DNA from: Candidatus Moranbacteria bacterium GW2011_GWC2_40_12
GTDB lineage: Bacteria > Patescibacteriota > Minisyncoccia > Moranbacterales > UBA11712
Direction of reading: 5' to 3'
DNA length: 64,000 nucleotides
Assembly: GCA_000995965.1 (NCBI GenBank)
Contig: LBYD01000003.1
Span: 17,713 to 81,712 of the forward strand
Shown in pieces: positions 10,488 through 24,666 of this stretch. Position 1 is the stretch's first letter, and each line of letters starts with the position of its first letter. The notes beneath the pieces were generated by a model, which saw nothing but the letters and a program-made list of their open reading frames with translations, did no database searches and was not told the origin of the DNA. The position numbers were made by a program, and so were the translations under genes.

Positions 10488-11555
10488 CTAAACTTCTCTC
10501 TTCACTATATAATCCGCGATCCCGATCAGAAACGCTTTGACCTCCCTGTTGAAATCCGACTTTTCAATGGCCGCTTTTCCTTCTTCGACATATTTCCTCG
10601 CCAAATTTTGGGAATATTCAAAAGAGCCGGTTTCACGTATCACTCGCCTGAAACTTTCTATATCGCTTTCAGAAACATTTTTATTCCCCAGAAGTTTTTT
10701 CACCAATTTTTTCTGCTTCACGTCACTATTTTCAAGGGCCTTTACGATTAGGAGAGTTTGTTTCCCTTCCCGAAGATCGGAGCAAACCGGTTTTCCCAAT
10801 TTTTTTTCGTTCCCGAACGCCCCCAAAATGTCATCCTGAATTTGAAAAGCGATTCCGACCGGAACGGCATATTCGCTCAAAACTTTGAGTATCTTTTCGT
10901 CTGCGCCGGCGAGAAGCGCCCCGAGATGAAGCGGGCCTTCGACTGTATATTTGGCCGTTTTATTTCGATGCACTTCGATAATTTCTTTTTCAGTCGCCCG
11001 GCCTTTCGCTTCGAGCATCACATCCAGAATCTCGCCGGAAACGGTATTTACGACAATTTCCTGAAGTTTCAAAAGGGCTTTTTGCTTTCTCTCCGGAGAG
11101 AAACGGGAATTGAATATTATTTCATTTCCGAATGCCGCCGCCATATCACCCGCCACAATCGCCATTGAATCGCCAAAGTGTTTCGGTTCGGCTTTTTTAT
11201 AAAATTTCTTTGCCAAACCTTCATACCTCTTGTGGATCGTCTGGACACCGTGGCGAAAATCATCCCGGTCAATGATGTCGTCGTGAATGAGAAGAAAAAT
11301 ATGCGTGAGTTCTATACTCATCGAAGCCTCGATGATTTTTTCAAAATCATTGCCACCGGCCGCCCGATATCCCCAATACATGAAACCGGCCCGCACCCGT
11401 TTTCCGCCGGCGAGAATCAGATCGCGGATGCATTTCACGGCGTCCTTCGCCGACGGCCCGACCTCCCGCATCTCACGGAGCTTTTTGGCAAAATATTGGG
11501 CCAGACTACGATCAAGCGTTTTTTTGTAATTTTGCAGTTCTATTTTCGCGTCCAT
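10488..11555 (-). CDS. polyprenyl diphosphate synthase (trans-isoprenyl diphosphate synthase family)
   Basis: First DDxxD at LLIHDDIIDRDD and second at FQIQDDILG. Confidence 0.9.
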   Translation of the reverse strand: MDAKIELQNYKKTLDRSLAQYFAKKLREMREVGPSAKDAVKCIRDLILAGGKRVRAGFMYWGYRAAGGNDFEKIIEASMSIELTHIFLLIHDDIIDRDDFRHGVQTIHKRYEGLAKKFYKKAEPKHFGDSMAIVAGDMAAAFGNEIIFNSRFSPERKQKALLKLQEIVVNTVSGEILDVMLEAKGRATEKEIIEVHRNKTAKYTVEGPLHLGALLAGADEKILKVLSEYAVPVGIAFQIQDDILGAFGNEKKLGKPVCSDLREGKQTLLIVKALENSDVKQKKLVKKLLGNKNVSESDIESFRRVIRETGSFEYSQNLARKYVEEGKAAIEKSDFNREVKAFLIGIADYIVKREV

Positions 11556-11599
11556 ATAACTCTATTTTGGCTTATATAAGGAAAAATAGCAAATTTTGA

Positions 11600-11628
11600 T
11601 TGACAAAGTTGGATAATTTATATATAAT
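11600..11628 (+). promoter_or_regulatory. sigma70-type promoter (TTGACA-17-TATAAT)
   Basis: ttgaca at 11600-11605, a 17-nt spacer, then tataat at 11623-11628. Confidence 0.55.
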
Positions 11629-11659
11629 AACAGCAATAAAAAAACGAGTGGAGGTTAAC

Positions 11660-11869
11660 ATGCAACAGGCGACGTCGCAGCACACAGTGGATCTAGGAGG
11701 GGATATCAAACGGATTTTGATGGTCAGCCATAGCATTGGAGGAAAACGGCATATCGCCGAAGTCCGCGCTACTGGCAGTATGGATTTCGTGAGGCCTGCG
11801 CTCCACGAAATGTTCGTGGCCCCGGTCATCGAATCTGAGAAGTTCCTGAAGAGGAAACGCTTCTCCTAA
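11660..11869 (+). CDS. small GC-rich ORF (69 aa) with GGAGG SD; alternatively a structured ncRNA
   Basis: GGAGG sits 6 nt before the ATG. The SD-containing stretch gagtggaggtt is complementary to aaccacctccac immediately after the stop. GC is about 55% versus about 40% for the genome. Promoter upstream and terminator downstream. Confidence 0.35.
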   Translation: MQQATSQHTVDLGGDIKRILMVSHSIGGKRHIAEVRATGSMDFVRPALHEMFVAPVIESEKFLKRKRFS

Positions 11870-11931
11870 CCACCTCCACCGTGCAACACCGCCTCGCGGC
11901 ACTAGGACGCCATCGCGCGTATCATTACCTA

Positions 11932-11951
11932 GTGCCCGGGGCACCTTTTTT
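11932..11951 (+). terminator. rho-independent terminator
   Basis: gtgcccggggcac hairpin followed by ctttttt. Confidence 0.6.
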
Positions 11952-12010
11952 ATAAGGACAATTCACGAAAATTATAATTCGCCTAACTCGGGTGTTTTTT
12001 TATTGAAAAA

Positions 12011-12412
12011 TCAGGCGTGATATTTTTTTCTCACAATTCTCAATATTGGCCGGTTTCGCTCTTTTATTCTTGCCTGTGCGATCTTATCCTGTAATTCTCT
12101 TTGAATATCCCTGTTGCTCGAAATATGGCTCCATCGGTGAGCTTCCAGAAGGACGCTGTCTGTCCGATCCAGCACTGACTGCCGTTCTTCTTTTGATAAC
12201 TCATCGAAATGTTCAAGGATGGCGTCAAGGCTTTTGACAATGCCAAGAAATGAACTCGCCCTCAACGCTTCATCTCTTTTTTCCTTTCCCTGAAATAAGT
12301 CTTCACCAACCGGAACGCTTGCGAAGAAATCCTTCAAGACATTCGGATTGAGTCTTTCCGTCGGCGCGTTTATTTTTGGAATATGTTCTTCATTTTTCGC
12401 TGTCTCAAGCAT
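12011..12412 (-). CDS. hypothetical protein
   Basis: 133-aa ORF with an ATG start and a charged helical composition. No motif recognised. Confidence 0.45.
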   Translation of the reverse strand: MLETAKNEEHIPKINAPTERLNPNVLKDFFASVPVGEDLFQGKEKRDEALRASSFLGIVKSLDAILEHFDELSKEERQSVLDRTDSVLLEAHRWSHISSNRDIQRELQDKIAQARIKERNRPILRIVRKKYHA

Positions 12413-12432
12413 AATATTTCAAAATCCTTTGT

Positions 12433-12504
12433 AGCCTCTAGGGGAATCGAACCCCTCTTACTAGGATGAGAACCTAGCGTCCTAGCCGATAGACGAAGAG
12501 GCCA
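12433..12504 (-). tRNA. tRNA-Glu (anticodon CUC)
   Basis: Cloverleaf: acceptor GGCCUCU/AGAGGCU, D-arm GUCU..GGAC, anticodon loop UUCUCAU, T-arm AGGGGUUCGAUUCCCCU, discriminator A. No encoded CCA. Confidence 0.8.
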
Positions 12505-23515: not shown

Positions 23516-23587
23516 TGGGGCGTCGCCAAGTGGTAAGGCAGGGGCCTTTGAAGCCCCCATTCGTGGGTTCGAATCCTACCGCCCCAG
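23516..23587 (+). tRNA. tRNA-Gln (anticodon UUG)
   Basis: U1-A72 first pair and G73 discriminator. D-arm UCGCCAAGUGGUAAGGCA and anticodon loop CUUUGAA. Near-identical in arm sequences to E. coli tRNA-Gln. No encoded CCA. Confidence 0.85.
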
Positions 23588-23595
23588 CTTTGCGC

Positions 23596-23657
23596 GAAAT
23601 GACTTCTGGGACAGTCCCGATGAAATCGGGATTTATCGGGGTTCGAATCCCTGTCCC
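23596..23657 (+). other. tRNA-like element with intact acceptor/T-arm and genomically encoded CCA but aberrant D/anticodon region
   Basis: Acceptor UGCGCGA/UCCCGCA with one mismatch, again U1-A72 and G73. T-arm CGGGGUUCGAAUCCCUG, then GCAGCCA. The internal region folds as the hairpin cccgatgaaatcggg instead of an anticodon arm. Confidence 0.4.
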
Positions 23658-23737
23658 GCAGCCAAATATTGACAAAAACCCTTCCATTCGCTAGGATTCT
23701 CCTAGCTTTTTATTTTATAGACAGGAGGTTTGGGAGG

Positions 23738-23920
23738 ATGAGCGCACAAAAAAAAGGATATCTGATTAGTGGAGAAAAGACGGAACAAGCCAAGCAGGAA
23801 ATTGCCGCAATCCTACAGAATCTCAAAAACGACACTGGCCTGGCCGTCGAAGCCATCACTGTGAAACATCGCGAGGGCAAAGTGGACCGCATCCACTTCC
23901 AACCCCTCGGCGCCGCTTAG
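23738..23920 (+). CDS. small hypothetical protein (60 aa) with strong SD
   Basis: aggaggtttgggagg immediately precedes the ATG. Followed by the terminator at 23947. The track ORF 23669 is an N-terminal over-extension. Confidence 0.5.
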   Translation: MSAQKKGYLISGEKTEQAKQEIAAILQNLKNDTGLAVEAITVKHREGKVDRIHFQPLGAA

Positions 23921-23946
23921 CCTGCGCCCCTGCCACTATCATTTCC

Positions 23947-23980
23947 CCACCGGCTTGCAGCTAGCCGGTGGCTTTTTTTA
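23947..23980 (+). terminator. rho-independent terminator
   Basis: ccaccggcttgcagctagccggtgg hairpin followed by cttttttta. Confidence 0.6.
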
Positions 23981-24093: not shown

Positions 24094-24666
24094 TCATTTT
24101 TCGCAGGAATTGTGCTTGGCTAAAATTTCTGCGAAAGTGTGAATTTGATGGATGTCTCCATCGAGATGCAGCGTCAGAAATTCTGTATCTGGCCTGACCT
24201 CGGGCATGGCCGAAAGAAATGTTCGGCAATTGCCTCAGGGAAGCAGGGTTGGGTGCAGAAGACCGCTCTTGTGATCCTCTTGCGGCTGGCCGACAATCAC
24301 AACGCCGACAATCAATTCATACCCGGCATGACGCGCAGCTTGAGCAGCAACGGTTTCAGCGCACAAATTTGGCCCATCAGCCACCGGTTTCATATTCGAT
24401 CCCCTGAATATCTTATAAAAATCTTCGATATAATAGGGCTGCGAATTGAAAGCATAAAGCGCGCATCCTACGCAAAAATTCCTGTAGGACATAGCGCAAG
24501 TAGCCGCCATTCTTCTGGCCTCATCGATCAGATACTCGGCAATTTGCCAAAATGCGGGAAGATGAAGATTCTGCATTTCAAAAGCTTTCTCTTCTTCAGA
24601 TAATTCCCTCCAGCGTCTGCGCCGCTCAATGAGTTTTTTATAAGCTTCGACATCCGGTCCGTACAT
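24094..24666 (-). CDS. cytidine deaminase-like protein interrupted by an in-frame TGA at the second zinc-ligand Cys position (pseudogene or recoding)
   Basis: The track ORF 24235..24666 contains AMSYRNFCVGCAL (cf. Cdd APYSKFKVGAAL) and CAETVAAQAA (cf. CAERTAL). Immediately after the TGA the same frame continues GNCRTFLSAM...EFLTLHLDGDIHQIHTFAEIL, matching the Cdd PCGACRQ...VLTNL...ELLP tail. Together that is 190 aa. Confidence 0.55.

What the first reader, a model, noticed from the sequence alone, without database searches (positions are those of the whole stretch)
11600..11951. GC-rich stand-alone transcription unit with a helix that sequesters its own Shine-Dalgarno
A canonical -35/-10 promoter, then GGAGG-ATG, a 69-aa ORF and an intrinsic terminator. 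The 11 nt containing the SD pair perfectly with the 12 nt immediately after the stop codon, so the ORF is enclosed by a long-range helix. GC is ~55%. This is either a horizontally acquired small gene under translational control or a structured ncRNA (terminal P1-like helix, internal GAAGUCCG-like stretch) whose ORF is incidental.
Basis: seen in the sequence. Interest (0 to 1): 0.55.

Follow-up and report, generated by a model that had tools for sequence, protein, structure and literature searches.

The report
Small gene clamped by its own anti-Shine-Dalgarno
This is a real, lineage-restricted 69-amino-acid protein gene in a Moranbacteria (CPR) genome; its mRNA carries, just after the stop codon, a sequence that pairs with its own ribosome-binding site, and unrelated small genes at the same chromosomal position keep the same pairing through compensatory changes.

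Summary
The SD/post-stop helix exists but is 8 perfect bp plus 3 bp across a bulge, not 11 perfect.

The ncRNA reading is rejected. There is no Rfam or tmRNA hit. The ORF keeps its frame and length in a 68%-identical homologue. Substitutions concentrate at third codon positions (dN/dS about 0.18 for the close pair). Codon usage matches the genome.

The translational-control reading is supported and extends beyond this gene. In the same slot (between polyprenyl synthase and tRNA-Glu), other Moranbacteria carry at least seven unrelated small ORFs behind the same TTGACA promoter. Six of ten ORF types have a post-stop sequence, CCUC core 1-6 nt after the stop, complementary to their own SD. The flanking base pairs covary, and own-versus-swapped pairing gives P=5e-4. 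Predicted folds leave the SD partly open in nascent RNA and closed once the post-stop 20 nt exist.

Closest known are the icaR and hbs 5'/3'-UTR interactions and the fold-back of type I toxin mRNAs. The protein's function is unknown, and horizontal acquisition is not supported.

The parts
11600..11628 (+). sigma-70-type promoter: -35 TTGACA (11600-11605), 17-nt spacer, -10 TATAAT (11623-11628). The predicted transcription start is about 11636.
   Evidence: 12/12 consensus match. TTGACA is present at the equivalent position in all 13 other related loci examined.
11636..11659 (+). Short A-rich 5' UTR (about 24 nt) containing the Shine-Dalgarno sequence.
   Evidence: Sequence. The leader length is inferred from the promoter position.
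11644..11655 (+). 5' strand of the clamp: ACG-(A)-GUGGAGGU, including SD GGAGG (11650-11654).
   Evidence: MFE and base-pair probabilities of at least 0.9. Invariant core with covarying flanks across loci.
11660..11869 (+). Protein-coding ORF of 69 aa (MQQATSQHTVDLGG...KFLKRKRFS), basic, with no detectable family.
   Evidence: Frame and length are kept in L015 and L018. dN/dS is 0.18, and substitutions by codon position are [1,2,7] and [22,17,39]. Only the sense frame is open in both homologues. Codon usage is native and the other five frames score negative. No Pfam, PHROG, PADLOC or PDB match.
11694..11702 (+). Internal UAGGAGGGG (codons L12-G13-G14), the 5' strand of a second helix stacked under the clamp.
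   Evidence: Pairs with 11860-11868 in the MFE. An equivalent 8-bp pairing, UAGGAGGC:GCCUUCUA, is kept in L018 although the 3' strand sequence differs.
11860..11868 (+). CUUCUCCUA, the last codons plus the first two bases of the stop; 3' strand of the second helix.
11872..11882 (+). Anti-SD element ACCUCCAC-CGU in the 3' UTR, 3 nt after the stop codon; 3' strand of the clamp.
   Evidence: CCACCTCCACC is invariant in window, L015 and L018 while the flanks diverge. Analogous elements lie 1-6 nt after the stop in 9 loci. Covariation is shown.
11891..11951 (+). Terminator T1: an extended two-tier hairpin (11891-11942) followed by a U-tract (11946-11951).
   Evidence: Terminator scan and MFE. 97.8% of cells are paired, 8 of 19 pairs change on both sides, and 0/500 shuffles reach the covariation score. 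It is 96% identical in L003, whose ORF is unrelated.
11980..12001 (+). Second, tandem terminator T2 (CGCCUAACUCGGGUG plus U7). It probably also ends the convergent 133-aa gene/tRNA-Glu unit.
   Evidence: Terminator scan. The stem is kept with G-U/G-C and U-G/U-A/C-G changes in L003, L004, L015 and L018.

Best explanation
The element is a monocistronic mRNA of about 316 nt for a small basic orphan protein. It is driven by a consensus promoter and insulated by two tandem terminators.

Its 3' UTR starts with an anti-Shine-Dalgarno element, placed 3 nt after the stop codon. Together with a second helix that includes the stop codon, this element pairs with the SD region and closes the whole ORF into a loop.

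Shown here:
- The ORF is protein-coding and under purifying selection.
- The SD/anti-SD helix is maintained by compensatory substitutions across loci whose ORFs are unrelated.
- In thermodynamic models the SD is partly accessible in the nascent chain and becomes sequestered only once the roughly 20 nt after the stop are transcribed.

Inferred:
- The first ribosomes load co-transcriptionally.
- The completed, ribosome-free mRNA then locks its own ribosome-binding site. This represses translation and probably alters decay, as in icaR.
- The anti-SD core lies within the stretch a terminating ribosome occupies and unwinds, so each termination event should transiently free the SD. Re-initiation would then be coupled to ongoing translation.

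The biochemical role of the 69-aa protein is unknown.
For: Coding:
- P0006/L018 is 68% identical with the same 69 codons.
- Window vs L015 has 6 synonymous and 4 non-synonymous changes, dN/dS 0.18. Window vs L018 has pS 0.75 and pN 0.27. Codon-position counts are [22,17,39], chi-square P=0.006.
- Codon-usage log-likelihood ratio (LLR) is 0.21 in frame, and the other five frames are negative.

Clamp:
- Duplex energy is -18.3 against a background of -7.4 +/- 2.7.
- Pairing probability is at least 0.9 in three homologues.
- The same architecture, with different sequences, occurs in L004 (AUGAGGG/CCCUCAU), L005 and L023 (GCGAGGG/CCCUCGC), L021 (GUGAGGGUC/GACCCUCAC), L020 (GGGAGGGA/UCCCUCCC) and L011 (GGGAGG/CCUCCC).
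- The three positions flanking the invariant GAGG:CCUC are paired in 9/9, 9/9 and 8/9 loci with three pair types each. The covariation score is 0.296 against 0.126 +/- 0.035 in shuffles (0/500), and slid controls reach at most 0.105.
- Own-versus-swapped duplex energies give P=2e-4 for 12 loci and P=5e-4 with one locus per ORF family. Among the six clamp-bearing families, the own pairing is the best of all 720 permutations.

Timing:
- Mean P(unpaired) of the SD is 0.2-0.75 for 3' ends up to stop+3 in seven of eight loci. In L021 it is already 0.0 at stop+3.
- It falls to 0.12 or less in all eight loci once stop+20 is included.

Precedent:
- An icaR 3'-UTR motif pairs with the SD, blocks initiation and creates an RNase III site (PMC3868564).
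- aSD-like 8-mers far downstream or in the 3' UTR pair with the RBS, inhibit translation and promote decay in B. subtilis, and are otherwise depleted from genes (PMC12697547).
Against: - There is no expression, structure-probing or proteomic data. All structures are thermodynamic predictions.
- The clamp is absent or unclear in 4 of 10 ORF types. In L003 the SD pairs with its own leader instead, in L009 the SD is open, and L006 and L024 are unclear.
- The core GAGG:CCUC cannot covary, so the evidence rests on three flanking pairs and on 9 loci chosen because they show the motif.
- The background set is small (29 genes) and its start codons were assigned by a crude rule.
- The termination-coupled reopening step is pure inference from ribosome footprint geometry (own knowledge).
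- AlphaFold gave only pLDDT 55, so the protein's fold and role remain unknown.
Confidence: 0.65

Rival explanations
1. The 5'/3' clamp mainly controls mRNA stability rather than translation. Pairing the two ends shields the transcript from 5'-end-dependent or endonucleolytic attack, as the 14-bp 5'/3'-UTR interaction does for B. subtilis hbs, another small, basic, highly expressed protein gene.
For: The hbs precedent (PMC5737220). The promoter is very strong and there are double terminators, suggesting a high-output unit. The whole transcript is strongly structured, z = -3.0. The encoded proteins in this slot are small and basic.
Against: The paired segment is centred exactly on the SD core in every clamp-bearing locus, and its partner sits within ribosome reach of the stop codon. 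End protection alone would not require this. The two roles are not exclusive.
Confidence: 0.15
2. It is the toxin mRNA of a type I toxin-antitoxin-like module. A fold-back between the 5' and 3' ends keeps the full-length transcript inert until 3' processing, as in hok or aapA1.
For: There is a long-distance 5'-3' interaction sequestering the SD, a small ORF, a strong promoter and rapid turnover of ORF content between relatives. The aapA1 description is in PMC5416894.
Against: No ORF in the slot has a hydrophobic or transmembrane stretch; the maximum Kyte-Doolittle 19-mer is at most 1.46, and 0.78 for the window protein, and all the small ORFs are basic and soluble-looking. No promoter-like site lies on the minus strand within 11600-11951. 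No antisense ORF or RNA is conserved. There is no PADLOC hit.
Confidence: 0.07
3. The transcript is a structured non-coding (or dual-function) RNA and the ORF is incidental. Its exposed or clamped CCUCC element acts in trans on other mRNAs' SD sequences.
For: Strong predicted structure. The promoter and 3' hairpin are more conserved than the middle. The ORF content of the slot is not conserved between subclades.
Against: No Rfam family matches at E<=10. Variation is codon-periodic and mostly synonymous, the frame and length are kept at 68% identity, and codon usage is native. Substitutions in L015 break predicted internal helices instead of compensating. The anti-SD is predicted to be occupied in cis.
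Confidence: 0.04
4. The SD/post-stop complementarity is a chance by-product, for example of G+C-rich terminator-proximal sequence, and has no function.
For: The helix is short (7-9 bp). CCUC-type motifs are simple. A scan of all SD-bearing ORFs of 30 or more codons in the window finds spurious ORFs with equal or better energies.
Against: The element is beyond all 29 control genes and conserved amid diverged flanks. It recurs in six unrelated ORF types at 1-6 nt from the stop. It covaries, and own pairing beats swapped pairing.
Confidence: 0.04

Closest known systems
icaR mRNA 5'-UTR/3'-UTR interaction, Staphylococcus aureus (Ruiz de los Mozos et al. 2013, PMC3868564)
   Same: A pyrimidine-rich anti-SD motif in the 3' UTR of the same mRNA base-pairs with the SD region. 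The expected consequence is blocked initiation.
   Different: The icaR motif (UCCCCUG) lies in the mRNA's long 3' UTR. Here the 3' UTR is about 82 nt and the anti-SD starts 1-6 nt after the stop codon, within reach of a terminating ribosome. A second helix includes the stop codon. The gene is an orphan small protein in a CPR bacterium. The architecture is shared by unrelated ORFs at one locus. RNase III involvement is untested.
hbs mRNA 5'/3'-UTR pairing, Bacillus subtilis (Braun, Durand & Condon 2017, PMC5737220)
   Same: A long-range helix of about a dozen bp joins the two UTRs of a short, highly expressed mRNA for a small basic protein, and mRNA fate is linked to translation initiation.
   Different: In hbs the helix overlaps an RNase Y site in the leader rather than the SD core, and it stabilises the RNA. 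Here the helix is centred on the SD.
Fold-back / long-distance interaction of type I toxin mRNAs (hok fbi; aapA1, PMC5416894; PMC6733600)
   Same: The full-length transcript is closed by 5'-3' pairing that hides the SD. The SD is available only in a different RNA state.
   Different: There is no hydrophobic toxin-like peptide, no antisense antitoxin promoter and no evidence of 3' processing.
Distal aSD-like sequences repressing the RBS by long-range folding (Gill et al. 2025 preprint, PMC12697547); ORF-centric mRNA structure (Burkhardt et al. 2017, PMC5318159, title and abstract only seen)
   Same: It has been shown experimentally that an aSD-like 8-mer hundreds of nt downstream, including in a 3' UTR, can pair with the SD, lower translation and promote decay.
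   Different: Those sequences are synthetic and are reported to be depleted from natural genes. Here a natural one is positively maintained by covariation at a fixed position.

Membership tests
Known structured ncRNA families (RNase P, 6S, SRP, tmRNA and all of Rfam 15) | Covariance-model match at or near the family's gathering score | tested here: not met
   No hit over 11500-12050 even at E<=10 apart from chance-level snoRNA, lncRNA and sRNA matches (13.5-14.6 bits against thresholds of 60-102). Nothing at the gathering score in the whole window except 3 tRNAs. Nothing in 7 related loci. ARAGORN finds no tmRNA.
Protein-coding gene | Reading frame and length conserved among homologues; dN/dS < 1; codon-periodic substitutions | tested here: met
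   69 codons in window, L015 and L018. dN/dS is 0.18 for the close pair, and pN is 0.27 against pS 0.75 for the distant pair. Position counts are [22,17,39], P=0.006. The other five frames contain stops.
Protein-coding gene | Codon usage like that of the host genome | tested here: met
   The log-likelihood ratio (LLR) is 0.213 per codon, against 0.277 +/- 0.104 for 69-codon chunks of 26 long genes. The other five frames are negative.
Protein-coding gene | Detected peptide or ribosome footprints | not testable with these tools
   No expression data are available.
icaR-type 3'-UTR/SD cis-interaction | 3'-UTR motif complementary to the SD of the same mRNA | tested here: met
   ACCUCCAC (11872-11879) pairs with GUGGAGGU (11648-11655). 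P is at least 0.9, and the pairing is supported by covariation.
icaR-type 3'-UTR/SD cis-interaction | The interaction lowers translation and creates an RNase III substrate | not testable with these tools
   This requires reporter assays and RNase III mapping.
icaR-type 3'-UTR/SD cis-interaction | Long 3' UTR (>100 nt) carrying the motif far from the stop codon | tested here: not met
   The 3' UTR is about 82 nt, and the motif starts 3 nt after the stop (1-6 nt in the 9 loci).
Type I toxin-antitoxin (hok/aapA1-like) | Small hydrophobic, membrane-active peptide | tested here: not met
   The maximum 19-residue Kyte-Doolittle mean is 0.78 for the window protein and at most 1.46 for any slot ORF. 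Net charge of the small ORFs is +2 to +10.
Type I toxin-antitoxin (hok/aapA1-like) | Antisense RNA antitoxin with its own promoter overlapping the toxin mRNA | tested here: not met
   No promoter-like site on the minus strand within 11600-11951. This is a consensus scan only, so a weak or non-sigma-70 promoter cannot be excluded.
Type I toxin-antitoxin (hok/aapA1-like) | 5'-3' long-distance interaction that sequesters the SD in the primary transcript | tested here: met
Intrinsic (Rho-independent) terminator | G+C-rich hairpin directly followed by a U-tract | tested here: met
   T1 is 11891-11942 plus U6, and T2 is 11980-11994 plus U7. The T1 stem is supported by 8 of 19 covarying pairs.
Integron gene cassette (considered because unrelated ORFs are followed by a conserved imperfect palindrome) | Adjacent intI integrase and attC with R''/R' core sites at the cassette 3' end | tested here: not met
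   The neighbours are housekeeping genes (uppS, polyprenyl synthase, murF, ftsI, tRNA-Glu) and no integrase was called in the 12 kb of L001. The element is single-copy in the window. GCCTAAC in T2 matches RYYYAAC only by eye, and no paired GTTRRRY site was sought.

The most novel reading that the evidence does not exclude
The slot between polyprenyl synthase and tRNA-Glu in Moranbacteria is a conserved 'expression shell'. The shell consists of a consensus promoter, an SD/stop-adjacent anti-SD clamp and a structured terminator. Unrelated small basic ORFs are exchanged into it or arise there de novo.

Because the anti-SD sits under the terminating ribosome, the clamp would work as a bacterial closed-loop mRNA device. 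Each termination would license the next initiation, while idle transcripts lock themselves.

A second stand-alone gene in the window (24235-24666) shows a similar start/stop complementarity. The device may therefore be a general feature of monocistronic genes in these reduced genomes.
Probability: 0.25. Interest if true: 0.75.

Novelty: new variant of a known kind. Interest (0 to 1): 0.58.

Why it matters
[quoted passage not shown] Recent work suggests that anti-SD-like sequences are generally selected against inside genes.

Here a natural anti-SD is positively maintained at a fixed position just after the stop codon. It is kept by compensatory evolution across unrelated ORFs, in an uncultivated CPR lineage where almost nothing is known about post-transcriptional control.

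If the termination-coupled reading is right, it gives a simple, testable device for coupling re-initiation to ongoing translation. It also gives a sequence signature (own-SD complement within about 10 nt of the stop) that can be searched genome-wide. Finally, it marks a hotspot of small-protein turnover next to a tRNA gene.

Tried and rejected
- Rfam at the gathering score on the whole window and at E<=10 on 11500-12050 gave only chance-level hits, and there were none in related loci. ARAGORN found no tmRNA.
- Pfam, PADLOC, PHROGs and PDB-sequence searches of the 69-aa protein found nothing. Pfam on ten other slot ORFs gave only sub-threshold zinc-ribbon-like hints.
- AlphaFold2 on a 3-sequence alignment gave pLDDT 55, with a beta-beta-beta-alpha topology. 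No fold search was run because the model is unreliable.
- The word-indexed protein search found only the protein itself. The exhaustive search added one 68% homologue.
- The window ORF was tested as a possible truncated relative of the 151/177-aa ORFs of L011 and L006, which have similar N-termini (MxQA...). No similarity was found.
- tblastn of every slot ORF against every slot transcript tested for frame-shifted homology between slot ORFs. Only window-L018, L004-L023 and L011-L006 are related.
- An antisense gene was considered. The minus-strand ORFs at 11572-11829 and 11693-11944 are not conserved, being interrupted by stops in L018, and have no Pfam hits.
- The integron-cassette idea was rejected on context (see the membership test).
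- The element and the L003-type leader were sought elsewhere in the window. Both are absent, so the element is single-copy.
- A more distant relative, L025 (54% neighbour identity), lacks the slot. No DNA was available for P0054.
- Folding the predicted internal helices across homologues gave mixed kept and broken pairs. There is no convincing structure inside the ORF beyond the two closing helices.

Full report
**What is at the coordinates**

The window is a contig of an uncultivated Candidatus Moranbacteria (Patescibacteria/CPR) genome. The same sequence occurs in JGI metagenome 3300009031 and in many Moranbacteria MAGs.

Between the divergently transcribed polyprenyl synthase gene (10488-11555, minus) and a convergent unit on the minus strand lies a stand-alone unit on the plus strand. 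The convergent unit is a 133-aa ORF at 12011-12412 followed by tRNA-Glu at 12431-12503. The plus-strand unit consists of:
- a perfect TTGACA-17-TATAAT promoter at 11600-11628;
- a 5' UTR of about 24 nt with GGAGG at 11650-11654;
- ATG at 11660 and a 69-codon ORF ending at 11869;
- a long hairpin with a U-tract (11891-11951) and a second terminator (11980-12001).

The SD-sequestering helix is real but was described too generously:
- it is 8 perfect base pairs, 11648-11655 with 11872-11879;
- 3 more pairs lie across a one-base bulge;
- it starts 3 nt after the stop codon;
- a second helix, 11694-11702 with 11860-11868, stacks beneath it and includes two bases of the stop codon.

**RNA gene or protein gene?**

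Rfam gives nothing at the gathering score in the window except three tRNAs. It gives nothing but chance-level matches at E<=10 over 11500-12050. ARAGORN finds no tmRNA.

The word-indexed protein search found only the ORF itself. The exhaustive HMMER scan of 1.84 billion representatives found one more cluster, P0006, which is 68% identical and also exactly 69 residues. A near-identical variant, P0005, exists as well. All are encoded at the same position next to polyprenyl synthase.

At the DNA level:
- Window vs L015 shows 6 synonymous and 4 non-synonymous changes (dN/dS 0.18), and 7 of 10 changed bases are at third positions.
- Window vs L018 has saturated synonymous sites (pS 0.75) but pN 0.27. 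Differences by codon position are [22,17,39], chi-square P=0.006.
- Only the sense frame is open in both homologues.
- Codon usage in frame scores 0.21 per codon, inside the range of the window's long genes (0.28 +/- 0.10). The other five frames are negative.
- Substitutions in L015 break rather than compensate the predicted internal helices.

The protein has no Pfam, PHROG, PADLOC or PDB relative. AlphaFold2 gives only pLDDT 55. Its function is unknown. It is basic and has no hydrophobic segment.

**The clamp is conserved, and not only in this gene**

In L018 the C-terminal codons and the spacer have diverged strongly. Even so, CCACCTCCACC after the stop and GUGGAGG before the start are invariant. 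The SD is predicted to pair with the post-stop element at P>=0.9 in all three homologues.

Loci from other Moranbacteria were retrieved through the polyprenyl synthase neighbour. They show the same TTGACA promoter and, in the closest ones, the same 3' hairpin (96% identical in L003). The sequence in between is not alignable. It encodes at least seven unrelated small ORFs of 46-177 aa; only window-L018, L004-L023 and L011-L006 are related.

In six of ten ORF types, a sequence whose CCUC core starts 1-6 nt after the stop codon is the exact complement of that gene's own SD region:

| Locus | SD side | Post-stop side |
|---|---|---|
| window | GUGGAGGU | ACCUCCAC |
| L004 | AUGAGGG | CCCUCAU |
| L005, L023 | GCGAGGG | CCCUCGC |
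| L021 | GUGAGGGUC | GACCCUCAC |
| L020 | GGGAGGGA | UCCCUCCC |
| L011 | GGGAGG | CCUCCC |

In full-length folds the SD pairs with this element at P of about 0.8-1.0 in nine loci.

I anchored the alignment on the invariant GAGG:CCUC core. The three flanking pairs are then formed in 9/9, 9/9 and 8/9 loci with three pair types each. The covariation score is 0.296 against 0.126 +/- 0.035 in shuffles (0/500), and at most 0.105 when partners are slid.

Further statistics:
- Duplex energies of each SD with its own post-stop region beat swapped combinations: P=2e-4 for 12 loci and P=5e-4 with one locus per ORF family. Among the six clamp-bearing families, the own pairing is the best of all 720 permutations.
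- Twenty-nine other genes of the window give -7.4 +/- 2.7 kcal/mol (best -14.9), against -18.3 here.

The clamp is absent or different in the remaining types. In L003 the SD pairs with its own leader, in L009 the SD is open, and L006 and L024 are unclear.

**The 3' hairpin**

The extended hairpin 11891-11942 is a genuine conserved structure:
- 97.8% of cells are paired;
- 8 of 19 pairs change on both sides;
- 0/500 shuffles reach the observed covariation, and slid controls collapse.

With its U-tract it is most simply an intrinsic terminator. T2 backs it up and probably also serves the convergent unit.

**How it most likely works**

Folding 5' fragments of increasing length shows when the SD closes:
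- For 3' ends up to stop+3 the SD is partly accessible, with mean P(unpaired) 0.2-0.75, in seven of eight loci. In L021 it is already fully paired at stop+3.
- P(unpaired) falls to 0.12 or less in all eight loci once the 20 nt after the stop are present.

I infer the following. Ribosomes can load while the RNA is being made. The finished, ribosome-free transcript then hides its own ribosome-binding site.

Experimental precedent makes repression of translation and faster decay the expected outcome. The icaR 3'-UTR motif does exactly this (PMC3868564). Synthetic anti-SD-like 8-mers placed far downstream or in a 3' UTR pair with the RBS, block initiation and destabilise mRNA in B. subtilis. Such sequences are otherwise depleted from genes (PMC12697547).

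A further inference rests on general knowledge of ribosome footprints, not on data here. The anti-SD core lies within roughly 10 nt of the stop, so a terminating ribosome must unwind it. That would free the SD and couple re-initiation to ongoing translation.

A stability role like that of the hbs 5'/3'-UTR helix (PMC5737220) is a serious alternative or an additional function.

A type I toxin reading is unlikely. There is no hydrophobic peptide, no antisense promoter and no PADLOC hit.

**Novelty and verdict**

The gene itself is an ordinary-looking orphan. The mechanism class, 3'-UTR/SD pairing in cis, is known. Three things are new:
- the fixed stop-adjacent position of the anti-SD;
- its maintenance by compensatory change across unrelated ORFs in one syntenic slot;
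- its occurrence in a CPR lineage.

Horizontal acquisition is not supported, since codon usage is native and no homologue exists outside the clade.

I rate this a new variant of a known kind, with moderate-to-good interest. All functional statements remain predictions until reporter, probing or meta-omic data are obtained.

Noticed in passing
L003:3900-3960(-), L004:2130-2190(-), L005:3850-3910(-), L023:1830-1900(-) (the leader just downstream of the promoter): Four loci share a conserved 5' leader of about 60 nt that the window lacks. It has two hairpins (CCUUUGC-AACG-GCAAGGG, then GGCGG-9 nt-CCGCC) preceded by GGAGG. It can also be read as a short uORF (MQRQG...), but a 5-nt indel in L003 shifts the frame while keeping the hairpins. 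There is no Rfam match.
   Followed up: partly
window 24235-24666 (-): A second stand-alone gene (143 aa, with its own -10-like box). The AGGGAAG between its SD and AUG is the perfect complement of CUUCCCU at its stop codon. Predicted pairing probability is 0.6-0.9. The start/stop clamp may be more general in this genome.
   Followed up: partly
window 23590-23666 (+): A degenerate tRNA-like remnant (T-arm GGGGTTCGAATCCC and acceptor end ...CCGCAGCCA) lies directly after tRNA-Gln (23516-23588). It scores only 15.7 bits against the tRNA-Sec model, E 0.65. It may be a pseudo-tRNA or an integration scar.
   Followed up: partly
window 23660-23970 (+): Another compact stand-alone unit: a TTGACA-17-TAGGAT promoter, a double GGAGG, a 60-aa ORF (23738-23920) and a clean terminator (CCACCGGC...GCCGGTGG plus U-run). 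Its SD is predicted to be paired, but not with its post-stop region.
   Followed up: partly
window 12011-12412 (-): A 133-aa hypothetical gene lies between the element and tRNA-Glu. It has weak similarity to phrog_25509 (E 3e-4) and DUF6674 (E 0.02). A 133-aa gene is called at the corresponding position in L023, whereas in L003 tRNA-Glu follows the terminators directly. L015 has a GIY-YIG gene beyond the tRNA. The tRNA-Glu neighbourhood therefore looks like a plasticity zone.
   Followed up: no
L006 (DATGZC010000004.1): This contig is labelled Candidatus Bathyarchaeia archaeon but carries a Moranbacteria-type polyprenyl synthase (67% identity) and the same promoter/slot layout. It is probably mis-binned.
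   Followed up: no
L004, L005, L009, L023, L024 slot ORFs: Several slot ORFs are Cys-rich, zinc-ribbon-like small basic proteins (e.g. MSC..C..CG.KL in L004 and L023; CxC...CxCxxC in L005 and the second ORF of L024). They reach only sub-threshold Pfam zinc-ribbon hits.
   Followed up: partly
window 11949-11978 (+): A promoter-like site (TTTATA-18-TATAAT, 10/12) sits between the two terminators. It would give only a tiny transcript ending at T2 and is probably fortuitous A+T-rich sequence.
   Followed up: no
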